Of a stretch of DNA of 13,994 bases, positions 1-13,994 are shown in pieces; the first letter of the stretch is position 1; every line of letters begins with the position of its first letter. Position numbers and translations under genes: made by a program. The stretch is from a virus (lineage: Duplodnaviria; Heunggongvirae; Uroviricota; Caudoviricetes). The stretch is from IMG/VR virus record IMGVR_UViG_2585427783_000004; one strand, given 5' to 3'. The notes under the pieces were generated by a model. It did no database searches and had not been told where the DNA came from. It saw only the letters and a program-made list of their open reading frames with translations.

Positions 1-1614
1 TTATTTATTGGTGAGTACTACGTTCCATGGCAGGAGTTCATCAACTCGGTTGGAAGGCCATTCCGGCAGTACGCTCAGGATATGGCGCAGATACGCTTCC
101 GGATCGATACCGTTCAGACGGCAGGTGCCGATCAGCCCGTACAACAGTGCTCCACGCTCGCCGCCGTGATCGCTGCCAAAGAACATAAAGTTTTTCTTTC
201 CGAGACAGACTGCACGAAGCGCTCTTTCCGCAGCATTATTATCCGCCTCCGCCAGACCGTCATCACTGTAATAACAGAGGGCATCCCACTGATTCAGTAC
301 ATAGCTGAACGCTTCGCCCAGTCTGGATTTTTTCGACAGCGTACCATTCTTCTCCACCATCCATTCATGCAGCGACGTCAGTAACACTTTGCTTCGCTGC
401 TGCCTGACGGCAAGACGCTCTGACTCCGGTAATCCCCGTATTTCATCCTCGATGGCGTACAGTTCACTGATTCGCTTCAGTGCTTCTTCTGCCGTCGCAC
501 TTTTGCTGCTGATGTATACATCGTGGATTTTTCGCCGGGCATGGGCCCAGCACGCAACTTCTGTCAGTGCACCACCTTCACGTTCTGCACTGAACAACCT
601 GTCGTAACCTGTGAACGCATCCGCCTGCAGGATACCCCGGAAGGGGCGGAGGTGTTGCTCCGGGTGTTTCCCCTGCCGGTTCGGCGAGTACGCGAACCAG
701 ACCGCTGGAGGAGATGACGAACCCACATTGCGATCATCCCGGACATACGTCCAGATACGCCCTGTTTTCGCCTTTTTCTGACCCGGTGCCAGTACCTTTA
801 CCGGTGTGTCATCAGTGTGAATCTTGCGGGTGTTCATTACATAACGGTACAGGGCATCATTCACCGGTGTCATTAACTGGCAGCACGCGTCAACCCAGTT
901 GGAGAGTAAGGCCCGGCTCAGTTCGACACCCTGGCGGGCAAAGATTTCACTCTGACGATACAGTGGCAGATGTTCGCAGTATTTTCCCGTTAACACGCGG
1001 GCAAGTAATCCGGGGCCCGCGATACCACGCTCTATCGGGCGGGACGGCGCCGGTGCTTCAACAATACAGTCACATTTTGTACAGGCTTTTTTTACCCGTT
1101 CTGTGCGGATCACTTTCAGGGCACTGCTCACCAGTTCCAGCTGTTCAGCGCTGACTTCCCCCAGATAATCCAGCTTACCGCCACACTCCGGGCAACAGCT
1201 TTCTTCTGGCTCCAGGCGGTGTATTTCACGGGGAAGGTGTGCCGGTAACGGACGACGATGGCGCGACTGTCGCAACTGGCGGGGAACCTGAGGATCGTCT
1301 TCCCGCCCACTGTAACGATCGCTGTCCTGTTCACGTTGTTTCAGCAGAGCCTCAGCCAGTTCAACTTCACGACGCAGTTTTTCAGAACGGGTACCGAACA
1401 GCATCCGGCGCAGTTTTTCTATCTGAGCCCGCAGATGTTCTATTTCCCGTTCATCTTCTTCGATCTTTTCTTCGGCACGTGTCAGTGCAGAGCGCAGGAA
1501 GGCTTCCGTCTCTTCAACCAGACTCAGTTGCTGGTCTTTCTGACGGAGGGCTTCAGCCTGCTCAGAGAGCAACCTTTCCAGCTCTGCGATGCGAATGAGG
1601 TATTTCTGACTCAT
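1..1614 (-). CDS. IS66-family transposase (TnpC / Orf3), 537 aa
   Basis: ATG at 1614, TAA at 3..1. Translation shows an N-terminal coiled-coil/leucine-zipper region, a CxxC...CxxC zinc-binding motif (CCPECGGK...CTKCDC) and a C-terminal DDE-type region, as in IS66 TnpC proteins (recognised from family signatures, not a search). Confidence 0.9.
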   Translation of the reverse strand: MSQKYLIRIAELERLLSEQAEALRQKDQQLSLVEETEAFLRSALTRAEEKIEEDEREIEHLRAQIEKLRRMLFGTRSEKLRREVELAEALLKQREQDSDRYSGREDDPQVPRQLRQSRHRRPLPAHLPREIHRLEPEESCCPECGGKLDYLGEVSAEQLELVSSALKVIRTERVKKACTKCDCIVEAPAPSRPIERGIAGPGLLARVLTGKYCEHLPLYRQSEIFARQGVELSRALLSNWVDACCQLMTPVNDALYRYVMNTRKIHTDDTPVKVLAPGQKKAKTGRIWTYVRDDRNVGSSSPPAVWFAYSPNRQGKHPEQHLRPFRGILQADAFTGYDRLFSAEREGGALTEVACWAHARRKIHDVYISSKSATAEEALKRISELYAIEDEIRGLPESERLAVRQQRSKVLLTSLHEWMVEKNGTLSKKSRLGEAFSYVLNQWDALCYYSDDGLAEADNNAAERALRAVCLGKKNFMFFGSDHGGERGALLYGLIGTCRLNGIDPEAYLRHILSVLPEWPSNRVDELLPWNVVLTNK

Positions 1615-1644
1615 GACCGTTTTTATAATGCGGTCAGGAGTTTT

Positions 1645-1995
1645 TTACAACATTGTCAGTGAGTTACGGCTGGATGTTTTTGGCTGACGCCAGTCCAGCT
1701 TATCGAGGAGCATTGCCAGTTGCGAGCGGGTAATGGATACCTTGCCGTCACGTACCGCAGGCCAGATAAACTGGCCTTCCTCCAGGCGTTTGGTGAACAG
1801 GCACAGACCATCAGCATCAGCCCAAAGAATTTTGACGGTGTCACCCCGTCGGCCACGGAAGATAAACAGGTGACCGGAGAAGGGATTATCATTCAGCACA
1901 TGTTGTACCTGTTCTCCCAGTCCGTTGAAGGATTTACGCATATCGGTAACGCCGGCAACGAGCCAGATACGGGTACCTGATGGGAGTGAGATCAT
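1645..1995 (-). CDS. IS66 Orf2 (TnpB-like accessory protein), 116 aa
   Basis: ATG at 1995 overlaps the tnpA stop (ATGA), TAA at 1645-1647. The MISLPSGTRIWLVAGVTDMRKSFNGL... N-terminus is characteristic of IS66 Orf2. Confidence 0.85.
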   Translation of the reverse strand: MISLPSGTRIWLVAGVTDMRKSFNGLGEQVQHVLNDNPFSGHLFIFRGRRGDTVKILWADADGLCLFTKRLEEGQFIWPAVRDGKVSITRSQLAMLLDKLDWRQPKTSSRNSLTML

Positions 1996-2417
1996 CTTCC
2001 CCTCCCGGTCAGTTCACGGATCAACACTGTGAGCAGCTCTGGCGATGGATTTTCCAGCGTCATGTTACCGTGACGGAATTCCACCTTGCAGGAACTGGCA
2101 CTGACTCTGGTCTGAGTGGAAGTGGATAAAGACGGCGCAATGGCCGCCACAGGTTCTTTCTGCTCATCCGGCGTTATTTCTACAGGTAATAATTCAACGC
2201 CAGTGTCAGAAGAGGTCGTTACCGGAAGACGCCGCGAAACACGCCCTTCGTTCTGCCAGAGCCTGAGCCATTTGAAAATAACATTATCATTGACGCCATT
2301 TTCACGTGCAATCTGTGCAACACAAGCTCCAGGTTGTGATGCCAGTTCCACCATACGAAGTTTGAATTCATTCGAATAGTTTTTACGAGGTTCTTTTCGC
2401 CAGTCCTGTAATTCCAT
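1992..2417 (-). CDS. IS66 Orf1 (TnpA-like, helix-turn-helix), 141 aa
   Basis: ATG at 2417; first gene of the IS66 triad; N-terminal HTH-like segment (CVAQIARENGVNDNVIFKWLR). Confidence 0.8.
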   Translation of the reverse strand: MELQDWRKEPRKNYSNEFKLRMVELASQPGACVAQIARENGVNDNVIFKWLRLWQNEGRVSRRLPVTTSSDTGVELLPVEITPDEQKEPVAAIAPSLSTSTQTRVSASSCKVEFRHGNMTLENPSPELLTVLIRELTGRGR

Positions 2418-2502
2418 ACTTAGATGTCCGTCTATATCAGATGGGCGTCTAAGTTACCAATTCTCGTCTGATGGCTACATACGGCGGTCAGTTTACGCTT
2501 AC

Positions 2503-3348
2503 GACAGAGTTATAATTTTTGCCAAAATTGGTAATGTCAGAATTTAATCCCTTAATTAAGTCTGCTGACGGCTTACCTTTTTGCCCCAGCTCCATTAGCT
2601 TCAATCCCATCTCATCTGAGTGAATTTGTGCTCGCTGAGCCCTGTCTAGTTGAGCGTTCTGGATATTTGCCCATCCTCTCGCGTTCTCCATGTCAGCCTG
2701 ACGCATACTTTCATCCAGTCGCCCTTGCTCAAGTCGACGACCTTCCATTTGATCTTTGATATCGAAATACTTCTCATGACCGAGAGAAAACAGCGCCAGA
2801 TTACCTGCGAAATGCTGGAAGCCCTGCGGGTCATTAACCTGCATTTCAGCAATAGTTTCTGGAGGGATACCTAAACGACGCATCTCCTGCTCATTATCCA
2901 TCATGAACCTGCCAAATGCGCCCTGACCAAGCGATGAGGCTACCTGTGCTTTGAGCGCCAGATTGCCATAATCATCCCTTTGAGCATCATCGACATAACT
3001 CATCCCTTTACGGACTTCCTCAAACTCTTCTGGGAATGCTGTAATAAGATTACGCATCTGCTCCCTGTCACCGGACGCATAAGCATCTGCATAACCTTTC
3101 TGGAATGCCGCTTTACGTTCCTGCTGTTGCTGCTGCTTATAAATGTCAGCAACTCCAGCCAGACCACGAAGACCTGTCAGAGCAACGTTATTTGCACCTG
3201 AGCGAGCCAGTTCATTGTTTTCGCGGATCAGACCAAGCGTTGCGTTAATGTCGCTTGCCTTTGGCGCATTCTCATTTTGCGCACCGATGCCAGCCAGAAA
3301 ACCACCAGAATTAATACCCTGTTGCCACGTAGCCATAAATTTACCCAC
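2503..3348 (-). pseudogene. Q/E/R-rich, predicted alpha-helical protein of unknown function; 3' end interrupted by the IS66 insertion
   Basis: Open frame from 3348 (alternative ATG at 3334, MATWQQ...) runs without a stop into the IS. The last codons and stop (V-S-V-N-TGA, 2502->2488) are encoded by the IS terminal repeat itself, so the native C-terminus is missing from the window. Poly-Q tract (QQQQQ) and coiled-coil-like composition. Confidence 0.55.
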
Positions 3349-5251: not shown

Positions 5252-7603
5252 TTAAAAAACATCATAACCCCCCATACCGATCAGACGGGCAAACGCAGCC
5301 TGTAGAACTCCGACCTCTGGTAGTTCGTAGAACACGCCATTCCCTCGGTCTGGTCTTCCATGCTTCACCAGCCCCATTTGTGCAAGTGATTTACCCAGTA
5401 GTGATCTGGCAGCTGGTTCTTTAAGCTTTTCCCCACGCTCAAGCGACCACGCTACAAATCGACTAACCATATCCTTTGCAAACAAACGGACTTCGCCATT
5501 AAACGGAGGTTCATTGATTAGCTCGCCATAAAGAAACAATTCAACGCCAGACAGCCCCAGCAAGATTTCTTCACGTAAGGCATCGGTCTGTGGCGCTCGT
5601 TGAGGGTCAAAACCTGAGAGATCCACCCCTTTAAGATGCCAAAGCAACTTTGCGGCACCGCCATCATTAAGCCAACTGTACAGCCGATCAAAATACTCCC
5701 GGCTCTGTGCTTTTTCAGGAGATGGCTCAAGCACGAGATAGCGGCGCTCTCTTATCCCTGCCTGTAATACCTGTGTGCTGTTACTGGCAAATATCAACCG
5801 GGCAAAATTCGGCATTGGTTCAGCATCAATTCCCTTGCGCTCAAGGTTAAACGTCGGTTCGCTAATAATCGCTTTAAGTCTGTCAGCTTCAGACGGCTTG
5901 TGGATCGTCACTTCGTCAGCAAATACCAGTAGCTTGTTAGCAAGTATTGAATTGAAGCGCCCTGAAATATGTCCCGCCCCGTTAATGTGGGCGGCGTACT
6001 GCCCCAGTATTTGCAGCAGCGGTTTAACCGTTGTGCCTTTCCCTGTGCCCGGGACAGATTTCATCACGATTGCCACGGACGGTTTTTCATCAGGCTTTTG
6101 GATAATGTGCGCCATCCACTGGATAAGATATTGGTATGCCTCTTCATTACCGGCACAGACAACCTGCAACAGGTGATTAAGGTATACCGTGCAATCTCCT
6201 TCAATTGGTTCCAGTGCCAGCCCCTCATACAGATTAAAAACATCGTCAGGGCATTTGTCTGGTACTGGATAAAATCCTACGCCTCCTGGCTTGTAGTTCT
6301 TCCCACTCCATGACAGCCACGCCGATCCCGCCAGCTTTCTGGCGACTCTCGGTTTATGATGAAAATAATGCTGAAATTGTGATAAATCCTCGAAAACGTG
6401 CGATACACCGCCGGTTTGAGAAGGCTTTAGCGACACCCCCTTGTGTTTCCCGCCGATGGTGACATGCGTAAACGTCCGGTTGATTTCTTCGAGGACAGCA
6501 ATTTCATCATCGCTTAACACCTCGCCAGAACTGATCTCATTCAGCGCCCCGACTGACTGTTTGTGATTTTTCACCTGCGCCCCTTTCCCCCGTGGCTGGT
6601 ACATCGAATCTTTAAATGCTGCTGTGGCTGCCGCCAGCCCGTGTTGTTGGTGATAGTCGTTCCAGTCGGCTTTATAGTCAGTCGGTGGCAGAGACACCCA
6701 GCCAGCTACGGAAATAGCGGCCCTCTCTGCGGCATCTTTCCCCGTGTTGATCCCTCCACTTTCGGAGTTTCCTTGCTGGTGATCGTTATCTGCGGCAATG
6801 ATGATTTGTGCCTGTGGATATGTTCTGCGCATGACTTCCGCTACTGGCAACAGGTTGCCAGCGTCGATTGCTGCCACTGTCATTGCGTCAGGGCGAATTA
6901 AATGGCACGACAGGGCGGTAGCCACCCCCTCAGCAATTATGATGCTGTGAGGTCGTTTCTGTGCGTTTATGGCGTGATATGCCCCTCGCTTTGCTGAACC
7001 TGTCAGGAGTCTTTTTTCACCATGTGAGGTAATAGTCTGTGCTGCTGTGACTGCGCCGGATTTATCCACCAGCGCCAGCAACAGAGATCCATCGGGCAAC
7101 ACAGGGAATGTAAAATCACCTACCCCTTTCGCAACCAGATAATCAGATTTGCCGTTTACAGCCTTTCTGCGCATGTCATCAAACTGACGGGAAAACGTAT
7201 CCCGTCTTTGTTGTTCGTCCTTCTCTGCCCTTTTCAGGCGCTCCTGTTCGCGTCGCTGGCGCTCGGTTTCCAGTTGTTCCCGTTTCTGGCTGGTGGCTTC
7301 TGGTGTTTCCGTTGTCCGGTAATCAATACCCAGAACATCAGCGGCAAGAAGCGCCGCCTCTGTTGTGTCGCAGTTATTTACGCGTTTAATTAAATCCAGC
7401 CCATCACCAGCGCCGCACTGATTACAGATGAAGCTACCGCGCCCGTTGTCATCGAACCGGAATCGATCTTTGCCCCCACATGCAGGGCAGGGAGCATGAC
7501 GGCGCGGAGAGTCAGGGACATTTATGTTCAGGCAGTCCAGCACATGAGGCCAGTTGTTTTCAGACGCACTGATAACCTGACGGATAAGATCAATGTTTCG
7601 CAT
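5252..7603 (-). CDS. P4 alpha-like bifunctional primase/helicase (zinc-binding primase N-terminus, TOPRIM-like middle, P-loop NTPase C-terminus), 783 aa
   Basis: ATG at 7603. Zinc-ribbon motif CPACGGKDRFRFDD...CNQCG near the N-terminus, Walker A-like VPGTGKGTT, overall size close to P4 alpha (about 777 aa). Recognised from family signatures. Confidence 0.9.
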   Translation of the reverse strand: MRNIDLIRQVISASENNWPHVLDCLNINVPDSPRRHAPCPACGGKDRFRFDDNGRGSFICNQCGAGDGLDLIKRVNNCDTTEAALLAADVLGIDYRTTETPEATSQKREQLETERQRREQERLKRAEKDEQQRRDTFSRQFDDMRRKAVNGKSDYLVAKGVGDFTFPVLPDGSLLLALVDKSGAVTAAQTITSHGEKRLLTGSAKRGAYHAINAQKRPHSIIIAEGVATALSCHLIRPDAMTVAAIDAGNLLPVAEVMRRTYPQAQIIIAADNDHQQGNSESGGINTGKDAAERAAISVAGWVSLPPTDYKADWNDYHQQHGLAAATAAFKDSMYQPRGKGAQVKNHKQSVGALNEISSGEVLSDDEIAVLEEINRTFTHVTIGGKHKGVSLKPSQTGGVSHVFEDLSQFQHYFHHKPRVARKLAGSAWLSWSGKNYKPGGVGFYPVPDKCPDDVFNLYEGLALEPIEGDCTVYLNHLLQVVCAGNEEAYQYLIQWMAHIIQKPDEKPSVAIVMKSVPGTGKGTTVKPLLQILGQYAAHINGAGHISGRFNSILANKLLVFADEVTIHKPSEADRLKAIISEPTFNLERKGIDAEPMPNFARLIFASNSTQVLQAGIRERRYLVLEPSPEKAQSREYFDRLYSWLNDGGAAKLLWHLKGVDLSGFDPQRAPQTDALREEILLGLSGVELFLYGELINEPPFNGEVRLFAKDMVSRFVAWSLERGEKLKEPAARSLLGKSLAQMGLVKHGRPDRGNGVFYELPEVGVLQAAFARLIGMGGYDVF

Positions 7604-7615
7604 TCTGGCCCCCGT

Positions 7616-8218
7616 TTAGTGCGTCACTGGTGCTTCTGGGATGCCGTTTTCGTTTAGTTCGGCAATAAAGCTGTTGTGAAGATCGGCAAGCACTTCTCGC
7701 CCAAACGAAGTGAGTGTTCCCTGTTCGACATCGAACATGTTGCTGTAAAAAATGATGGCATTCTTTGTTCCGACATCAACACCATATTTCTCGATCATTG
7801 CGCCCTCAATGTTGTTTGCCATAGCGAGGCGCTCTGCTACTGGATACAGCGGCATGGCGACGATGCCATTGGAATAAACAGAAACCACGGAATGATTGCC
7901 ACTGTCATCAATAATGCTGACGGTGCCGTTTTCCTCTCTCATTTCCAGCATGAATACTGTTGCGATCAGCCATCTCCACATAATGACGTTATGCTGTGAT
8001 GTGTAATCGAAATATCCCTGGTTGCCGCCATCGGCAATAGCGAGATGTATTGACATACCTTCATCTGGTTTATCGTCATAATCCCCGGCATCCAGACGAT
8101 TTACGGCATCAATATATGAGACGGCCTCAACGCGTTCTGTCATGCCATCGTTGCTGCGGTACATGATGTTTACGCCGCCAGGCGTTGCTTCTGCATGGAA
8201 AGTTAAGAAATTATTCAT
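7616..8218 (-). CDS. Hypothetical protein, 200 aa, immediately upstream of and co-oriented with the primase
   Basis: ATG at 8218 (MNNFLTFHAE...) with GAGG 7 nt upstream; 8-bp overlap with the preceding small gene. The ORF-track start at 8323 is an upstream extension that would overlap the previous gene by more than 100 bp. Confidence 0.6.
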   Translation of the reverse strand: MNNFLTFHAEATPGGVNIMYRSNDGMTERVEAVSYIDAVNRLDAGDYDDKPDEGMSIHLAIADGGNQGYFDYTSQHNVIMWRWLIATVFMLEMREENGTVSIIDDSGNHSVVSVYSNGIVAMPLYPVAERLAMANNIEGAMIEKYGVDVGTKNAIIFYSNMFDVEQGTLTSFGREVLADLHNSFIAELNENGIPEAPVTH

Positions 8219-8432
8219 GTTTCGCCTCGCCTGAATGATTCTGTAACTCATATTTGCCCAACAATTCGTCCGCTTCCTGAATAGCTTCTGGTACGCCATT
8301 GAGCAGTGACATAACCGCGCCAATCATTAACTTGTCTCTGTTGCTTGGGCTGGCCCCTTCAAGCCAGAACCCTAAAACAGTCTGAACCTGTTCGATGCGA
8401 CATTGCGCTTCAATGAGCTGGATGTTGGTCAT
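8211..8432 (-). CDS. Hypothetical small protein, 73 aa
   Basis: ATG at 8432 with GGAGAG 6 nt upstream; ATGA overlap with the preceding gene stop (8429-8432). Confidence 0.55.
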   Translation of the reverse strand: MTNIQLIEAQCRIEQVQTVLGFWLEGASPSNRDKLMIGAVMSLLNGVPEAIQEADELLGKYELQNHSGEAKHE

Positions 8433-8692: not shown

Positions 8693-8883
8693 TTTTCACC
8701 ACCAAGAATTACCAGCTCTGCACGGGCATCGTTAACCAAAGATGAGCACGCTTTAATCGCATCCACGACATCAGCAGCGTCCATTTCTTCAGCCGAAAGA
8801 CTGACAGCAACCAGGACAGCCGCTGCTTGCTCGATTAATTGAAGTGCGGACGTAAGGCGAGGGGTATTAATTGAGTTATTCAT
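8689..8883 (-). CDS. Hypothetical small protein, 64 aa
   Basis: ATG at 8883 preceded by GGGGG about 6 nt upstream; 8-bp overlap with the upstream gene. Confidence 0.5.
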   Translation of the reverse strand: MNNSINTPRLTSALQLIEQAAAVLVAVSLSAEEMDAADVVDAIKACSSLVNDARAELVILGGEK

Positions 8884-9094
8884 TGGTTGCCCCCGTTTTT
8901 ACTGGCATTTCGCCACCTTCCAGCAGGAAATGAACGTCACGAACGGCGAGATCCAATATCGCGAGTAACGCCTTCAGTCTTTCGTCTCGTGAGGGAGAGT
9001 TGCTCACCAGAATGTCGTTAATCACTTCTGTCAGTGTGATGATCTGGCTTGTGCGTTCGAGGGGATCCATATGCACATCGTAGGTTTTAATCAT
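8876..9094 (-). CDS. Hypothetical small protein, 72 aa
   Basis: ATG at 9094 preceded by GGAGGTG at ideal spacing; the start overlaps the stop of the upstream 64-aa gene (CATGATTAA). Confidence 0.55.
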   Translation of the reverse strand: MIKTYDVHMDPLERTSQIITLTEVINDILVSNSPSRDERLKALLAILDLAVRDVHFLLEGGEMPVKTGATNE

Positions 9095-9281
9095 GTGCCA
9101 CCTCCATGCGGATACGACCAGCAAAAAAGCAGACGTGATCGCGCACCAGAGAACGGCGAGCATCGCGTTCAGACTCGGCAGCAATATGATGAATTTTGGC
9201 GGTAATTGTCGGGCAATCGCGGCGAACTGCGGCGATAATCCAGATAAATTGCGTTTTTTGGGTAGGGGTAGTAGCCAGCAT
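9087..9281 (-). CDS. Hypothetical small protein, 64 aa; first gene of the early operon that ends with the primase
   Basis: ATG at 9281 preceded by a perfect AAGGAGG 7 nt upstream. All seven Arg codons are CGC/CGT and Leu is CTG, whereas the overlapping frame of the 355-aa ORF is full of CTA/TTA/ATA/AGG/CGA here. Confidence 0.55.
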   Translation of the reverse strand: MLATTPTQKTQFIWIIAAVRRDCPTITAKIHHIAAESERDARRSLVRDHVCFFAGRIRMEVAHD

Positions 9282-9477
9282 GTGGCAGCCTCCTTCAGAT
9301 AGCAGGTTACGCTACCACCGGAAACGCCAATTTCGCTGGTGGTAGCCCAGACAGGGTTGGCGTAACCGGCTCTGAAGGATACCGGCGCTTCCGAAGAAGC
9401 CCCCGCCTGAGCCACCATTGATTGACAAAGGCGCTGGATTATACACCAACGCCCAAAAAATGGGTGAGTCAGACCTA
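9282..9477 (-). promoter_or_regulatory. Promoter plus structured 5' leader of the early operon
   Basis: Minus-strand TATAAT at 9443->9438 (no good -35). Downstream leader has a UUCG-tetraloop hairpin (GCUUC-UUCG-GAAGC, 9400->9387) and a 9-bp stem hairpin (GCUACCACC ... GGUGGUAGC, 9346->9311) before the SD at about 9290. Confidence 0.35.
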
Positions 9478-9513
9478 CGACATAAAAAAAGACGCTTGGC
9501 GCGTCATATGTCG
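9478..9513 (-). terminator. Candidate rho-independent terminator at the end of the alpA-side transcription unit
   Basis: Minus strand: stem GACGC / GCGUC (5 bp, 5-nt loop) followed by U7 (9490->9484), nested inside a larger inverted repeat CGACAT ... ATGTCG (9478-9483 / 9508-9513). Confidence 0.4.
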
Positions 9514-9943
9514 CCTTCAGAATTTTTAGGACGCCAATCCCGGCACCCGTTTTATGAGGTGCCTTATAACCATAAACCGTGTTGCCGCATAACGGCAAGC
9601 TCTTTTTTATGGACTCCGAAAACTCACTATTGGAAGAACCAGAAGCACAGTACATCGCGCTCATTTCGTTAACGTCACGCGCGTGGACGAAGGTTTTTGT
9701 GGAGTCACTACACGAGCAGAGAAAGCCATCTACGACCAGAAATTCTCTGGCATAGCCGCTGACCTTCTCAACGCTAACACCATCGACCGTAATTTCTGAC
9801 ATAGTTAAGGCATCCGCTCCTACCACCAGCAAATGATAAACTTTGCTTGTATCTGCTGTATTAATGTCTGACTTTGCTGTCATATTGCTGGATTTTGGCG
9901 ACATACCAGCCAGTGAAAATATCTTCTTCTGGGCGGTTAGCAT
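9514..9943 (-). other. Open frame with a plausible start (GGAGG + ATG at 9943) but no in-frame stop before the terminator and promoter; possible decayed gene or chance open frame
   Basis: SD GGAGG 7 nt upstream of the ATG at 9943 and protein-like composition for about 120 codons, but the frame runs through a terminator, a promoter, leader hairpins and a better-supported gene in another frame without any stop. Confidence 0.25.
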
Positions 9944-10119
9944 TTGTTAACCTCCGCGAACTCCTTCATGAAACGTGCCAGCGGTTGTACGCATGGCGAT
10001 TGATACCCGTCGCGATAAAACGTCACTCGGTTGTGAGACACGCTTTCGACAGTAACGAGTGCTCCGTGGGCATCTTTGTAGCGTTTTTGAGGTTGTGGTG
10101 TTCCTGTCGGCTTAAACAT
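9937..10119 (-). CDS. Hypothetical small protein, 60 aa
   Basis: ATG at 10119 (MFKPTGT...) preceded by GGAGG 6 nt upstream; the start overlaps the stop of the antirepressor-like gene (ATGTTTAA). The ORF-track start at 10206 is a non-coupled upstream extension. Confidence 0.45.
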   Translation of the reverse strand: MFKPTGTPQPQKRYKDAHGALVTVESVSHNRVTFYRDGYQSPCVQPLARFMKEFAEVNKC

Positions 10120-10945
10120 GGACCGCCTCCAGACGCTTGGCGAGCCAGCGTTGCGACAGGCGGGGGAGTTCTCCTTTGCGCTGCTCATATTCCATGCCCA
10201 TATCAATTAACGTGATATTGGTGCTTTCGAGATATGAGAGGTGCTCAAGCTGTTCTGCGTTCATATGGTCGCGAGGTTCGCCAGAATAGCCATTTATCCG
10301 CGCCCACTGCTTAGCAGTTAGCCCACCAAGAACGATACGAGAAATCATATTGCTCTCGTTTGTGTAGTGGTGTTGCTGCGTCGTTTTCCCCATCTCGGCA
10401 CGGGCCATATTCAGCGCATCGCACATTGGCTTGAAGTTGTTTGCGGCACTGATACGGGCTTTTAGCTGGCGACGATAGCGGGCGGCGATTTCAGGCACGC
10501 TACGCTGTAATTCTTTCTCGCACTGGATGAAATAACGGCGGATAGCGCGACCCTGATCATTGCGTTCGATCATTGCCAGTTCTTTCGCCATTCCGACACT
10601 TAACAGATAGTCTTTGCCGGGTCTGCCAGACTGCTTAATCTTGCTGTAAGCCGCGTCATTCGGGCTTTTCCCCAAATTTGGGGAAATTGTTTTATGGACT
10701 GAGTAATCGTGCCCAATGGTGAAGTCATATTCAGAGATGCGATCAGTGATCCATGTAGAGAAGTCTTTTCCCACGCCCAACGCTTTGTGTAACGCTTTTG
10801 CGCTAACAATATTGGTTTCACGCCCGCCTATATGACCAGAAATAACCGGGACAATTGCGGCAAATTCATTACCGTTAATTGTGCCCAGAGAGGCGTTCAG
10901 ATGAGGGGCGGCCTCAGAAATTAATCTGCTTTTTTCGATGTTCAT
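10112..10945 (-). CDS. Phage antirepressor-like protein with N-terminal AntA/AntB-type domain, 277 aa
   Basis: ATG at 10945 with GGAGA 6 nt upstream. The N-terminal region (SAKALHKALGVGKDFSTWI...GRPGKDYLLSVGMAKELAMIE...GRAIRRYFIQCE) matches the conserved AntA-domain pattern as I recall it. Confidence 0.65.
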   Translation of the reverse strand: MNIEKSRLISEAAPHLNASLGTINGNEFAAIVPVISGHIGGRETNIVSAKALHKALGVGKDFSTWITDRISEYDFTIGHDYSVHKTISPNLGKSPNDAAYSKIKQSGRPGKDYLLSVGMAKELAMIERNDQGRAIRRYFIQCEKELQRSVPEIAARYRRQLKARISAANNFKPMCDALNMARAEMGKTTQQHHYTNESNMISRIVLGGLTAKQWARINGYSGEPRDHMNAEQLEHLSYLESTNITLIDMGMEYEQRKGELPRLSQRWLAKRLEAVHV

Positions 10946-10957
10946 TTTTAGTCTCCG

Positions 10958-11389
10958 TTAGGCGGCGTTAAACGCGTCCGGGTAGAGTTTCAGAATGTCG
11001 GCAATTTCCTGCTGAGAAAGTCCGTTGTGATCATTTATGTTCGCAAGATGGTTAACATGAGTGATCACTTTCAGAACATCACCACGGCAGGAGAAACGGT
11101 AGCGAAGGTGTGTTCCGATACCATCAGGATTCTTTTCGTCGATACGCTCCAGAGTGATTCCAAGCTGGCGTTCTAACTCTGTTGCATAGTTACGACCAGA
11201 AGACAGACGGCAGTAGCGAAGAATGTCATTTTCTGTCCATCCCTCTATACCAGTACGCAGCATATAGACTCGGGCACGATGCTTTTTCGGTGTGCGCTTT
11301 GGTGCTTGAAGGGATTTTGTAAGGGGCGTAATATCAGATACGCGAATATCTGAATTAGCCGCCTGTAATGGGCGGTTTTTCTTTTCCAT
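10958..11389 (-). CDS. Hypothetical protein, 143 aa, basic N-terminus; function unknown
   Basis: ATG at 11389 overlaps the alpA stop (ATGA); no stop for 143 codons; conventional codon usage. Confidence 0.6.
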   Translation of the reverse strand: MEKKNRPLQAANSDIRVSDITPLTKSLQAPKRTPKKHRARVYMLRTGIEGWTENDILRYCRLSSGRNYATELERQLGITLERIDEKNPDGIGTHLRYRFSCRGDVLKVITHVNHLANINDHNGLSQQEIADILKLYPDAFNAA

Positions 11390-11607
11390 CAGGCCACCTT
11401 CCCGCGGCGTTCTGCCAGCCAGTTATTAATTTCCACCGCATCAAACGCAGTCACGTTATCTGTTAGCTTCACTGGGCGTGGAAGAGTGCCATTTTTAACC
11501 CATCTATCAATAGTAGGCAGTGAAACACCTAGCAATTCCGGCATGCGAAAGCGACGGATGTATCCAGTTGTTGGGATAGCTGATGATGCTGGCTTGTGTA
11601 CTGTCAT
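11389..11607 (-). CDS. alpA: AlpA-family (excisionase-like, MerR-type HTH) transcriptional regulator, 72 aa
   Basis: ATG at 11607. Small protein with the motif MPELLGVSLPTIDRWVKNGTLPRPVKL...AFDAVEINNWL typical of AlpA/Xis-type regulators found next to P4-type integrases. Confidence 0.75.
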   Translation of the reverse strand: MTVHKPASSAIPTTGYIRRFRMPELLGVSLPTIDRWVKNGTLPRPVKLTDNVTAFDAVEINNWLAERRGKVA

Positions 11608-12078
11608 GTCTCTAGTAACCTCTCTGATAGCTCATGAAGTTACTTAAAGTTTAGTGGTTGCCCATACAGTATTTCTATTAAGACTAGAATCTATTGAAAG
11701 AAATTATAAATCTATTGAAAAAATACCGATCCACTGAAAGATTGCAAATGCAGGTGGGATAATTATTTTCTTTATTTTCAATTAGTTACCAGTTTAAAAA
11801 ATCATTGTTTTATCAAAGAGTTATATCTTTCATCGTCATTCATCATGTTTTTACATTTCTTTTTATCTTTTATTATTCAATTGGTTGAGTCGGTTTATAA
11901 TGGCTCATGATGGCTTAAAATGGCTAATGATAGCTGGCGTATCTTTTAGAGATGGGGTGATTACAGATGAACTAAGCCGAACAGATATAGCAATGGCTAG
12001 GCATAGAATTATCTATGCTGGTGGAGATGGGTAAACAGGTAATGCCCCGCCATTGCTTTGGAGGGGCGTGAAAAGTGA
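11608..12078 (-). promoter_or_regulatory. AT-rich intergenic control region upstream of alpA, carrying repeat motifs
   Basis: 470 bp with no ORF of 60 aa or more, strongly AT-rich with A/T tracts. Contains direct repeats AATCTATTGAAA (11688-11699 and 11709-11720), a 7-bp-arm palindrome GCATAGA-atta-TCTATGC (12001-12018) and the phased array at 11901-11938. Confidence 0.4.
11901..11938. repeat. Helically phased tandem 10-bp repeats TGGCTnAnnA (3 good copies plus 1 degenerate)
   Basis: tggctcatga / tggcttaaaa / tggctaatga / tagctggcgt read directly from the sequence; 10-bp periodicity places copies on one DNA face. Confidence 0.45.
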
Positions 12079-12729
12079 TTAGTCGAGATCGTGGACAGCT
12101 AATAAAGCCCGTGAGATTTTTTCTAGGAATGTGGCTTTTGCTATTCCTTTATGGGATATCCCTTCATCCTTGATTAAGGTTTCTATGTCACGGTATATAG
12201 CTGTGCGATTAGGTTTCCCATTTTGGATGTAGGAAGATGAGCCTGATTTTTTTATCAGCAGATGTACTATCAACCCCATCATTTTCATTGTCCCGTTTTC
12301 CTCATCCTGCTTTCTATGCTGCCCACGTCCGCTGCGGTTGGTTTCTTTGATGTAGTTTACTAACTGGAGTCCTCCAAGGTTTCGGGCTTTTTCTTCCCAG
12401 CCCTTGGTGCCACGCAAATCATCAATCGCTTCTGATATTTTCTGAACAATTATTTCTGGTGTATTTGTGTCAATAAATGGGTAAGAAGCTAAGAAAATAT
12501 CAAGGGCATGGCAAGGCTCATCTTTACTAGTTTTTTCACCTCTGTACACCTTGATAGCTCTGGCAAGATGAGTTCTGACAAAATCGACATATTCGAAATT
12601 TTCCTCAGGCACATCGCTAATGCGCATAGATGGGTTTAGGCCAGCCAAGGCCACAGCCATTTCATGAGGGGTAATCGATACAGATGAACAAAGCCGTTCG
12701 ATTGGCGATTTTCTCAAGATGTTGTTCAC
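12079..12729 (-). CDS. Hypothetical protein, 216 aa, translationally coupled to the integrase; AT-rich cargo gene of unknown function
   Basis: GTG start at 12729 overlapping the integrase stop (GTGA) with a strong GGAGG 5 nt upstream; TAA at 12079-12081. Visibly lower GC than neighbouring genes. No family recognised. Confidence 0.6.
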   Translation of the reverse strand: MNNILRKSPIERLCSSVSITPHEMAVALAGLNPSMRISDVPEENFEYVDFVRTHLARAIKVYRGEKTSKDEPCHALDIFLASYPFIDTNTPEIIVQKISEAIDDLRGTKGWEEKARNLGGLQLVNYIKETNRSGRGQHRKQDEENGTMKMMGLIVHLLIKKSGSSSYIQNGKPNRTAIYRDIETLIKDEGISHKGIAKATFLEKISRALLAVHDLD

Positions 12730-13994
12730 ATTTGCCTCCGGGCTTTATCGAATGGCGTTACGTTGTAGTCTTTCCCGCTTTCCAGTGCCACCAGCAGATC
12801 TGCCCACTGTGCCAGTGCTGCTTTACGCTCATCAAAATACTGATGACGGTTATAAATCCCCTCTACGCCCTTAATGCGATGATTGAGGCATCGTTCCGCC
12901 ACGACAGGATCAACACCCAATGCTGCTAAATGAGTACGTGCGGTGCGTCGGAAGTCGTGAATCGTGAAATTAGGCACATCCGGCATTTCGGCGCGAACCT
13001 TAGCCAGTGCTACGGGTAAAGTGCTTTCCTGAATATGTGGGATCATTCTGTTTTGCATCTTCCTGGCCGGAAGCACCCATGCGCTATTACATGAAAAGGT
13101 GTGTAGCTCTCTCAACCATTCAACGGCTGGGGAAGGTAGAGGTATATCAATAGGGTCTCCGTTTTTGCTGCGTTCTTCCGGCAAATGCCATACCGCACCA
13201 TCTAAATCAAACTCTTCCCATCGTGCGGCGCATAACTCCATCTTACGAACGCATAGTGCCAGCAATAGCTTAAATGTCAGTTCGTTCTGGCGGCTGAATC
13301 CTTTTGCGGTGCGCATAGCCTCGAATAGCCTGATAAGCTCATCGCGAGTTAGCCAACGGTCGCGGGAAACCTCTTTACCACCAGCATCAGATACTTCAAA
13401 CGCTGAACAAGGGTTTATCTCCAGAGCGTGGCGTTTTATCCCATAGTCAAAGATACGGCGTGTCCAGCGTAATACATCTGTTGCTATCGTTGGTGCTCCT
13501 CGGTCAACGATACCTTTTAACATGTCGTCAATGTGACGTGGCTTAACGTCCTCTACCTTCATATGCCCAATGCAGGGGTTAATATCCTTATCAATTCTCC
13601 GGCGAAGGATATCGGGATGTTTCCATCTCGGAAGTATCTGTCGCTCGAAGTATTCGGCGGCCAGATCTGAAACGCGCATGGCGTTTTTCTCAGCCTCCAT
13701 TTTTGCCAGTGCTTCAGCTTTTCGTTCCTGTTTTTCTGCTGCTACGTCATAGCCAAGAGCAACTCTGGCTGACAGCTCTTTTGCTGTTTCTCTGGCTTTT
13801 GATAGTGACAGTTCGGAGTAAGAGCCGATAACCATAGCCCGCTGTTTTCCTGCGAGCTTATATCGGAATCGCCAGAACGGGACTGTGTAGTTTTTGGGGT
13901 AGCAAATATAAAGGCCGTTGCCGTCTGCCTTGCCATCAAATCTGTCTCCCGCCTTTATCCATGCGCGGATCTGCATATCTGTGAGTTTTGGCAT
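12726..13994 (-). CDS. int: Tyrosine recombinase, P4-type phage integrase, 422 aa
   Basis: ATG at 13994 (window edge). N-terminal arm-binding region with RFRYKLAGKQRAMVIGSY...LSKARETAKEL, and C-terminal catalytic region with HDFRRTARTHLAALGV and a conserved Tyr (YNRHQY). Confidence 0.9.
   Translation of the reverse strand: MPKLTDMQIRAWIKAGDRFDGKADGNGLYICYPKNYTVPFWRFRYKLAGKQRAMVIGSYSELSLSKARETAKELSARVALGYDVAAEKQERKAEALAKMEAEKNAMRVSDLAAEYFERQILPRWKHPDILRRRIDKDINPCIGHMKVEDVKPRHIDDMLKGIVDRGAPTIATDVLRWTRRIFDYGIKRHALEINPCSAFEVSDAGGKEVSRDRWLTRDELIRLFEAMRTAKGFSRQNELTFKLLLALCVRKMELCAARWEEFDLDGAVWHLPEERSKNGDPIDIPLPSPAVEWLRELHTFSCNSAWVLPARKMQNRMIPHIQESTLPVALAKVRAEMPDVPNFTIHDFRRTARTHLAALGVDPVVAERCLNHRIKGVEGIYNRHQYFDERKAALAQWADLLVALESGKDYNVTPFDKARRQM

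What the first reader, a model, noticed from the sequence alone, without database searches (positions are those of the whole stretch)
12079..12729. AT-rich 216-aa cargo gene translationally coupled to the P4-type integrase
The first gene after int starts with GTG inside a GTGA overlap with the int stop and has a strong GGAGG site, so it is co-expressed with the integrase. It is markedly more AT-rich than the flanking genes and is followed by an AT-rich region, which is the signature of horizontally acquired cargo. I do not recognise its sequence. In P4-like satellites and PICIs, integrase-proximal positions are known hotspots for anti-phage cargo, so this is a plausible single-gene defence or abortive-infection candidate.
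Basis: partly seen in the sequence, partly recalled or inferred. Interest (0 to 1): 0.65.

Follow-up and report, generated by a model that had tools for sequence, protein, structure and literature searches.

The report
Integrase-coupled satellite gene of unknown function
The 216-residue gene is real and is co-translated with the integrase of an E. coli phage satellite. It belongs to a small uncharacterised family that always sits directly behind satellite integrases, next to the spot where defence genes get inserted, so it looks like a fixed part of the satellite and not a defence cargo gene itself.

Summary
**Observation: confirmed.**
- ORF 12079-12729 (minus strand) starts at a GTG inside a GTGA overlap with the integrase stop.
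- GGAGG lies 5 nt upstream.
- GC is 42% against 49% for int, and a 471-bp, 34% GC spacer follows before alpA.

**Interpretation: partly supported.**
- In E. coli islands at yicC with ≥98% identical integrases, this slot is swapped among at least five alleles. These are this gene ("X") and an unrelated mosaic family of 281-321 residues.
- X matches no defence, Pfam or NCBIfam model and no solved or viral fold. The model is confident (pLDDT 90) and all-helical.
- Its only family match is phrog_30524, of unknown function. HMMER found 34 clusters among 1.8 billion representatives; every source-named homologue but one probably mislabelled assembly is from Enterobacterales.
- In all but two of the contexts examined, a homologue down to about 20% identity lies directly after a P4-type integrase. 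The start usually overlaps the int stop, and alpA follows.
- In ssrA-type islands X, int and alpA stay 92-99% identical, while Avs2, PD-T7-5 or Abi/Mrr-like genes are exchanged between X and alpA. There X flanks the hotspot and is not the cargo.

**Best guess (about 0.4):** a fast-evolving binding or regulatory accessory of the integration-induction module. Single-gene defence remains possible (about 0.25).

The parts
12726..13994 (-). P4-type tyrosine integrase, 422 aa. Its stop overlaps the start of X.
   Evidence: Pfam Arm-DNA-bind_3, Phage_int_M and Phage_integrase. 25% identical to P4 Int over the full length. The island is integrated next to yicC.
12735..12739 (-). GGAGG ribosome-binding site for X, inside the last codons of int, 5 nt before the GTG.
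   Evidence: Read directly from the sequence.
12079..12729 (-). X: 216-aa all-helical protein of the phrog_30524 family, translationally coupled to int. Identical to RefSeq WP_001059729.1, annotated as a hypothetical protein.
11989..12057 (.). 16-bp inverted repeat (88% complementary, 37-nt loop) starting about 20 nt after the X stop. It carries the same AGCCAT/ATGGCT word as the decamers.
   Evidence: (I2).
11895..11935 (.). Four tandem units with a 10-bp period (minus-strand reading AGCCATnnnn; ATGGCT at 11900, 11910 and 11920). This is the only such cluster in the window.
   Evidence: Analogous decamer arrays occur in L008, L002 and L017 and in the P4 ori 'type 2' repeats upstream of vis.
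11660..11741 (.). Three to four boxes phased about 20 bp apart (minus-strand TTTCAATAGATT and variants), ending about 50-130 nt upstream of the alpA start.
   Evidence: Conserved in L015, L017, L019, L008, L011 and L002. Absent from islands carrying the alternative slot genes.
11389..11607 (-). alpA (72 aa), the regulator or excisionase gene of the island.
   Evidence: Pfam Phage_AlpA and HTH_17. Its role is taken from PMC6092414 and PMC11773190.
11580..12750 (.). The cassette exchanged among E. coli yicC islands: the last ~8 codons of int, X, the whole spacer and the 5' end of alpA.
   Evidence: blastn breakpoints against L004, L005 and L006. AlpA is only 69% identical across the boundary.

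Best explanation
X is a real gene co-translated with Int. It belongs to a small, fast-diverging family that is specific to phage satellites (PICI-like, capsid-forming PICI and P4-like) and forms part of their int-X-alpA integration zone.

**Shown**
- The position behind int and the stop/start coupling are conserved even at about 20-30% protein identity.
- In one lineage, recognisable defence cargo is inserted between X and alpA while X stays constant.
- In the E. coli yicC lineage, X together with the alpA upstream region is exchanged as one cassette with an unrelated gene family.

**Inferred**
- X is a non-enzymatic binding protein. It is all-helical, has no catalytic motif, is mildly basic, carries a conserved flexible GRGxHRKxDE loop and has a weakly helix-turn-helix-like C-terminus.
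- It is made together with Int.
- It acts on the satellite's own life cycle. The most likely target is the control region in front of alpA (or an origin-like function of that region), which would tune when the island switches from quiescence to excision and replication.
For: - **Conserved synteny and coupling.** Of the contexts checked (window; L002; L007-L021; L028-L030; ten IMG/VR contigs), all but L014 and L026/L027 have an integrase-sized ORF directly before X. In all but L028, that ORF's stop overlaps the X start or lies within 2 nt of it (GTGA, ATGA, TAATG or TAAnATG). L028 has a 95-nt gap.
- **Range of elements.** They integrate at yicC, ssrA or der. Their replication genes differ: D5/DUF5906, DUF927, AAA_25 or Prim-Pol.
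- **Narrow distribution.** 34 clusters among 1.8e9 representatives. The homologues that a source names are from Enterobacterales apart from one probably mislabelled assembly, and all are annotated as hypothetical.
- **X flanks the hotspot in ssrA-type islands.** X is 92-96%, AlpA 94-97% and Int 92-99% identical. The X-alpA interval holds Avs2 (E 0), PD-T7-5 (E 2e-137) or PDC-S47 plus an Mrr-like gene.
- **No enzymatic or defence signature.**
- **Weak hints of DNA binding.** pI is mostly 8.3-9.5. Sub-threshold HTH hits all map to residues ~188-213.
- **Linkage to the alpA region.** X, the repeat-bearing spacer and the alpA 5' part are swapped together.
Against: - No significant DNA-binding domain was found. 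The HTH similarity is below every threshold (hhalign probability below 1%).
- The phased boxes in front of alpA could equally be AlpA auto-activation sites, and the decamers could be origin iterons as in P4. No repeat is tied specifically to X.
- The island already has P4-type CI-RNA immunity (C4 and isrK), so it does not obviously need a protein repressor.
- Islands with 98-99% identical Int and 92-95% identical downstream genes lack X altogether. X is therefore dispensable, or replaceable by an unrelated protein.
- Pairwise identities of X correlate with neither int nor alpA.
Confidence: 0.4

Rival explanations
1. X is a single-gene anti-phage (abortive-infection or exclusion) cargo carried in the 5' accessory hotspot of the satellite.
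For: - The slot is exchanged among at least five alleles on the same backbone: 110, 41 and 77 of 5426 E. coli genomes carry X, a316 and a321, and a281 and a307 also occur.
- X diverges faster than int or alpA and has lower GC.
- PICIs carry immune systems at their 5' or 3' ends (PMC11364771).
- 6 of 8 randomly chosen unknown loci in P4 hotspots protected against phages (PMC13586616).
- In P4, the gene directly 3' of int is cII, a component of the Gop-beta-cII defence system in PADLOC.
Against: - X has no PADLOC hit even at E 0.1, no relation to P4 cII, and no nuclease, NTPase, transmembrane or other effector feature.
- The family is found only behind satellite integrases, with conserved translational coupling. 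Generic defence genes do not behave like this.
- Where recognisable defence genes are present, they lie downstream of a constant X.
Confidence: 0.25
2. X is an accessory factor of the integrase itself. It could be an architectural or directionality cofactor, or an inhibitor, made in a fixed ratio with Int and acting in integration or excision.
For: The stop/start overlap with int is conserved across the whole family and all att specificities. Coupling of this kind usually marks proteins that act together.
Against: - Int proteins 98-99% identical occur without X. They are followed by unrelated genes that are not overlapped with int (18-116 nt gaps).
- X and int do not co-diverge: window against L008 is int 70% and X 24%; window against L017 is int 65% and X 71%.
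- The repeats near X differ from the ATGTACAC arm-type repeats flanking the island ends in L001.
- AlpA already fills the directionality role in related islands (PMC11773190).
Confidence: 0.12
3. X binds a helper-phage or host protein. It would serve helper sensing, helper interference or superinfection exclusion, and its rapid divergence would reflect an arms race with helper proteins.
For: - Very fast sequence divergence with a conserved fold-level architecture.
- The family is satellite-restricted.
Against: Known satellite interference genes lie in the AlpA-controlled operon, not behind int. No partner is identifiable from sequence, and nothing here ties X to a helper type.
Confidence: 0.1
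4. The ORF is a chance reading frame or a decaying remnant with no function.
For: None beyond the lack of annotation.
Against: Full-length conservation without frame disruption across 34 clusters. There are invariant motifs, a confident structure model, and >=99% DNA identity across 112 E. coli records.
Confidence: 0.01

Closest known systems
PHROG phrog_30524 (unknown function)
   Same: Full-length profile match, E 3e-34, residues 11-209 against profile positions 14-213 of 220. X is a member.
   Different: The family has no annotated function, so membership explains nothing about mechanism.
P4 cII (sce7726 family; component of the Gop-beta-cII defence system)
   Same: Same place and orientation: the first gene 3' of a P4-type int, followed by the satellite's accessory region. 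PADLOC recognises cII as a defence component.
   Different: No sequence or profile similarity (hhalign probability 0.2%). cII is 264 aa, lies 66 nt after int without overlap, and works with gop and beta, which are absent here.
5' accessory (immune) region of Gram-negative PICIs and the int-proximal hotspot of P4-like satellites
   Same: Same location between int and alpA. The slot is exchanged among near-identical E. coli islands. Avs2, PD-T7-5 and Abi/Mrr-like genes occupy this interval in related islands.
   Different: In those islands X is the constant flank of the interval, not its variable content. X itself matches no defence model.
SaPI/PICI master repressor Stl (Rpr)
   Same: A highly divergent, element-specific gene between int and the excision/replication operon, co-oriented with int. 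No equivalent is known for Gram-negative PICIs (PMC6092414).
   Different: Stl has a recognisable HTH and sits at a divergent promoter. X has no significant HTH, all genes here are co-directional, and the island carries P4-type CI-RNA immunity. This is an analogy only.
EcCIMP1-like PICIs (helper phage Kapi1)
   Same: The window's backbone (AlpA, AntA antirepressor, DUF4222, Ash, primase, a captured P22-type ejection gene) is of the EcCIMP1-like kind (PMC11773190).
   Different: EcCIMP1 integrates at tRNA-Thr. It carries a small, mis-annotated 'UvrB-like' gene, EcCIMP1_002, which by its locus number lies between intS_1 (_001) and alpA (_003), where the window has X.

Membership tests
phrog_30524 | Significant full-length match to the family profile. 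| tested here: met
   E 3e-34, 119.5 bits, residues 11-209.
Known or candidate anti-phage defence proteins (PADLOC-DB v2) | Match to any of 5027 defence-protein models. | tested here: not met
   0 families at E <= 0.1 for X and for the cf-PICI homologue. The same library recognises P4 cII, beta and gop, and also Avs2 and PD-T7-5 in neighbouring loci.
Hotspot cargo (operational definition) | Presence or absence varies among elements whose flanking core genes are near-identical. | tested here: inconclusive
   Met in E. coli yicC islands: X in 110 genomes, and other alleles in at least 118 with int >=98% identical. Not met in ssrA-type islands, where X is 92-96% conserved and the cargo downstream varies.
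Hotspot cargo (operational definition) | Occurs in varied genomic contexts and hotspots, with its own expression signals. | tested here: not met
   All but two sampled contexts are directly 3' of an integrase, mostly with stop/start overlap. No promoter-like site precedes X.
P4 cII / sce7726 family | Sequence or profile similarity to cII. | tested here: not met
   No NCBIfam hit. hhalign probability 0.2%.
Helix-turn-helix transcription regulators (AlpA/HTH_17, MerR-like and others) | Significant match to an HTH domain model or fold. | tested here: not met
Stl/Rpr-type satellite master repressor | Binds the operator of the induction promoter and is inactivated by a helper-phage protein. | not testable with these tools
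   Needs EMSA or reporter assays and helper-interaction assays. Only positional analogy and linkage to the alpA upstream region are available.
Recombination directionality factor or integrase cofactor | Required together with a given Int, with binding sites in the att arms. | tested here: not met
   Near-identical Int occurs without X. The att-proximal repeats are ATGTACAC, unlike the repeats next to X.

The most novel reading that the evidence does not exclude
The X family, and the unrelated 281-321-aa family that replaces it, could be interchangeable trans-acting control proteins of Gram-negative satellites. Made with Int, they would bind the repeat arrays in front of alpA. That would set which signal or helper switches the island on. 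This would be the missing counterpart of the Gram-positive Stl repressor, on a fold with no known relatives.
Probability: 0.15. Interest if true: 0.75.

Novelty: new variant of a known kind. Interest (0 to 1): 0.45.

Why it matters
- **Annotation of satellite defence loci.** Satellite defence hotspots are now mined for new immune systems. Knowing that the first gene behind int is often a constant, integrase-coupled flank rather than cargo changes how these loci should be delimited. In ssrA-type islands the hotspot is X|alpA, not int|alpA.
- **An unexplored protein family.** X is confidently modelled yet has no fold relative in the PDB or BFVD, and it occurs only in phage satellites of Enterobacterales.
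- **Possible link to induction.** How helper phages switch on Gram-negative PICIs is still unclear. If X acts on the alpA control region, it would bear directly on that question.
- **If it proves to be a defence gene.** It would be an unusual one that is hard-wired to the integrase.

Tried and rejected
- **Family scans of X.** Pfam, NCBIfam and PADLOC gave nothing.
- **Solved-structure sequence searches.** PDB sequence and profile searches gave nothing below E 0.1.
- **First structure model.** Built from 11 close homologues, it was poor (pLDDT 59) and was discarded. The 34-sequence model replaced it.
- **Are the alternative slot genes distant homologues of X?** This was prompted by look-alike 'RxH..(D/N)(R)E' and 'LIV.LLK' stretches. 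hhalign of single sequences and of a 15-sequence profile gave probabilities of 0.3% or less, so the idea was rejected.
- **Homology to P4 cII.** Rejected.
- **An RNA gene in the AT-rich spacer.** Rfam found nothing meaningful.
- **Spacer repeats as integrase arm sites.** Rejected. The island ends carry ATGTACAC repeats, and the spacer lies about 1.9 kb from att.
- **Co-divergence of X with int or with alpA.** No correlation (Spearman 0.25 and 0.29, not significant).
- **The search for related loci with the divergent alignment.** It failed because no stretch was conserved enough. The genome scan with the close alignment returned only two loci.
- **Literature.** A search for the RefSeq accession found no paper.

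Full report
**1. Observation**

The ORF lies on the minus strand at 12079-12729.
- Its GTG (12729-12727) overlaps the integrase TGA (12728-12726), giving GTGA. GGAGG (12739-12735) lies 5 nt upstream.
- Ten homologues of 63-83% identity start at the same position. Residues 7-21 are invariant among them, so the GTG is the real start and not the internal Met24.
- GC is 42.4% for the ORF, 49.3% for int and 48.6% for the window. The 471-bp spacer to alpA is 34.2% GC, with a core of 20-30%.
- No promoter-like site lies between 12730 and 13000 on the minus strand.

**2. The element**

The window is an E. coli phage satellite integrated next to yicC. The gene order is:
- int, then X, then the spacer;
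- alpA, a 143-aa gene, an AntA antirepressor, DUF4222, and Ash;
- a P4-alpha-like primase, 33% identical to P4 alpha over the N-terminal 335 residues;
- a captured P22-type ejection-protein gene, cut by an IS66 element.

A C4 antisense RNA and an isrK RNA lie inside the ash gene. The island therefore has P4-type CI-RNA immunity.

The layout matches the four-zone Gram-negative PICI plan of integration, Bro, replication and late zones (PMC10111431). It also matches the EcCIMP1-like islands mobilised by the P22-like phage Kapi1 (PMC11773190).

**3. What X is by sequence and structure**

- X has no hit in Pfam, NCBIfam or PADLOC.
- Its only family match is phrog_30524, of unknown function (E 3e-34).
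- A word-indexed search of 5.8 billion proteins found only close relatives.
- A full HMMER profile search of 1.8 billion representatives found 34 clusters, nearly all about 205-240 residues long.
- A further profile search returned only 'hypothetical' proteins; those a source names are from Escherichia, Salmonella, Yersinia, Serratia, Buttiauxella and Rouxiella.
- With a 34-sequence alignment AlphaFold2 gives a confident all-helical model of nine helices (pLDDT 90.2, pTM 0.60).
- The most conserved features are TP (90-91), GG (119-120), and a flexible loop GRGxHRKxDE (134-143) followed by a long helix. The C-terminal stretch is P..IY.D...L....IS..G..STFY.K.
- That C-terminus attracts only sub-threshold HTH matches.
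- The proteins are mostly mildly basic.
- Nothing suggests an enzyme or a membrane protein.

**4. Is the slot variable? Yes, in the closest relatives**

The integrase is found in 335 E. coli genomes, mostly at 95-100% identity. X is in only 112 of them.
- Homology to islands without X stops about 25-30 nt before the int stop and resumes at window position 11579, inside alpA.
- The exchanged cassette is therefore the last int codons, X, the whole spacer and the 5' part of alpA. AlpA is only 69% identical across this boundary.
- The other cassettes each carry one co-oriented gene of 281, 307, 316 or 321 residues. The a316 cassette is in 41 genomes and the a321 cassette in 77.
- These four form one mosaic family with a shared N-terminal 'IPP..YF.L.RAA.LL.CE.DDLL' motif and a shared C-terminal block.
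- That family is unrelated to X by profile comparison. It also matches no Pfam or PHROG model, and two of its members tested against PADLOC gave at most a weak PDC-S31 hit at E 0.002.
- These genes are not overlapped with int, and only about 110 bp lies between them and alpA.

**5. Is X cargo? The wider family says no**

Homologues down to about 20% identity sit directly behind a P4-type integrase in all but two of the contexts examined. The start usually overlaps the int stop or lies within 2 nt of it, and alpA follows. The contexts were:

| Context | Loci |
|---|---|
| Capsid-forming PICI vB_KppS-Ant | L002 |
| Ten IMG/VR contigs of the same type | ten of L032-L045 |
| Yersinia and Serratia P4-like elements with Ogr/Delta and a DUF927 primase | L008-L013 |
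| E. coli, Buttiauxella, Klebsiella and other PICI-like islands | L015-L018, L029, L030 |
| An island with an AAA_25 replicase | L019, L020 |
| ssrA-type islands | L007, L021 |
| A more distant 270-aa relative next to int, an HTH_17 gene and a Prim-Pol/D5 replication module (95-nt gap after int) | L028 |

The junction sequences are given. The two exceptions are L014, where int is reduced to a remnant, and L026/L027, where no intact int is nearby.

The att sites differ (yicC, ssrA, der). Int identities range from 23 to 89%, and X does not co-diverge with int or with alpA.

The decisive case is the ssrA-type islands L007, L021 and L014.
- X is 92-96% identical, AlpA 94-97% and Int 92-99%.
- The interval between X and alpA holds three different sets of defence genes: PD-T7-5 plus two small genes; a PDC-S47/Abi_alpha gene plus an Mrr-like nuclease; or Avs2.
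- There the hotspot is X|alpA, and X is its conserved flank.

**6. The AT-rich spacer**

The spacer has three repeat features:
- a 16-bp inverted repeat just after the X stop;
- four 10-bp-period units (ATGGCT at 11900, 11910 and 11920), the only such cluster in the window;
- three to four boxes phased about 20 bp apart (TTTCAATAGATT) ending just upstream of alpA.

The same two-tier layout recurs in L015, L017, L019, L008, L011 and L002. The decamers are lineage-specific and the box is conserved as AAT(A/G)GA(A/T)T. L028 carries an inverted TCCAAATGGA pair at the equivalent place.

Both repeat classes are missing from islands with the alternative cassettes. ssrA-type islands have a different box (TTTCTATCCGGAC, three copies) before alpA.

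In P4 the origin lies just upstream of the alpA homologue vis. It is built from three tandem decamers plus TGTTCACC octamers, and the L002 iterons (TGTTCATC) resemble the latter.

My reading is that the spacer is the alpA control region, possibly doubling as an origin. It is not a compositional scar of acquisition. Which protein binds which repeat is not established. AlpA auto-activation (PMC6092414, PMC11773190), the primase and X are all candidates. The repeats are not integrase arm sites, because the island ends carry ATGTACAC repeats.

**7. Mechanism**

*Shown.* X is co-translated with Int. It is position-locked and satellite-specific, it diverges fast, it has no catalytic signature, and it is dispensable or replaceable on one backbone.

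*Inferred.* X is a binding protein of the integration-induction module. It most plausibly acts on the alpA/spacer region. I give this 0.4 overall: high for 'core-like accessory of the satellite' and low for the specific target.

*Rivals.*
- Single-gene defence (0.25). This has a strong prior from hotspot biology, since 6 of 8 unknown P4 hotspot loci protected (PMC13586616) and PICI 5' ends carry immune systems (PMC11364771). The context evidence of section 5 and the absence of any effector feature weaken it.
- Integrase cofactor (0.12). This is weakened because near-identical Int occurs without X.
- Helper- or host-protein binder (0.1).
- Spurious ORF (0.01).

**8. Comparison with what is known, and novelty**

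- X is a member of phrog_30524, which is uncharacterised.
- It occupies the same place as P4 cII, a defence component recognised by PADLOC, but is unrelated to it.
- It resembles Stl only by position and divergence.
- I found no paper that mentions the protein or a gene class defined by coupling to satellite integrases.
- I rate it a new variant of a known kind: an accessory gene of the satellite integration zone, with a conserved coupling to int, a hotspot-flank role that I did not find described, and a fold without relatives.

Interest is 0.45. The finding is solid and useful for delimiting satellite hotspots, but the function remains unproven.

Noticed in passing
window 9335-9422 (-) and 9485-9562 (-): A C4 antisense RNA (RF01695, 79.9 bits) and an isrK RNA (RF01394, 60.5 bits) lie inside the Ash-family gene (8876-9943). 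A PICI-like island therefore carries P4-type CI-RNA immunity.
   Followed up: partly
window 1-2502 and 2488-3348 (-): An IS66 element (tnpA, tnpB and transposase) has cut the 3' end off a captured P22 gp16-type ejection-protein gene. The ORF is 286 aa here against about 447 aa in strain 99-3165, and homology to L001 starts at window 2503.
   Followed up: partly
window 5875-8270 compared with L001: Strain 99-3165 carries the same island at 99.97-100% identity over the shared segments, but with a 2.4-kb deletion. The deletion removes most of the primase gene and the 235-aa phrog_1515 gene, so that copy is probably immobile.
   Followed up: partly
L004 5023-5973, L005 4921-5886, L022 2613-3458, L023 3111-3956, L024 2081-3004 (all on the minus strand): A second uncharacterised, mosaic protein family (281-321 aa) occupies the int-alpA slot in other E. 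coli yicC islands. Its members share an N-terminal motif and a C-terminal block but have different middles, and the family matches no Pfam or PHROG model.
   Followed up: partly
L007 7995-9167, L014 7847-12319, L021 1963-4895: In ssrA-type (CP4-57-like) islands the interval between the X homologue and alpA is a defence hotspot. It holds PD-T7-5, Avs2, or PDC-S47/Abi_alpha plus an Mrr-like nuclease, between near-identical flanks.
   Followed up: yes
window 10112-10945 (-): The C-terminal part (residues 164-266) of the AntA-family antirepressor matches the PADLOC candidate model PDC-S22 (E 7.7e-11).
   Followed up: no
L001 18396-18583 and 8070-8110: ATGTACAC repeats (four next to int, two at the far end) and a shared 12-bp ATTATGTACACC mark the probable arm sites and att core. 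In that strain they delimit an island of about 10.4 kb.
   Followed up: partly
L029 (contig CACSKA010000004.1): An 83%-identical homologue with an overlapping integrase sits on a 430-kb contig labelled Chryseobacterium sp. The label is unexpected for a family whose other named homologues are all from Enterobacterales, so the assembly is probably mislabelled or contaminated.
   Followed up: no
L031, L033, L036, L038, L042, L046, L047 (IMG/VR contigs): Several predicted viral contigs of the cf-PICI type end exactly at the start of the X homologue and exclude int. The prophage-boundary calls appear to cut between int and X.
   Followed up: no
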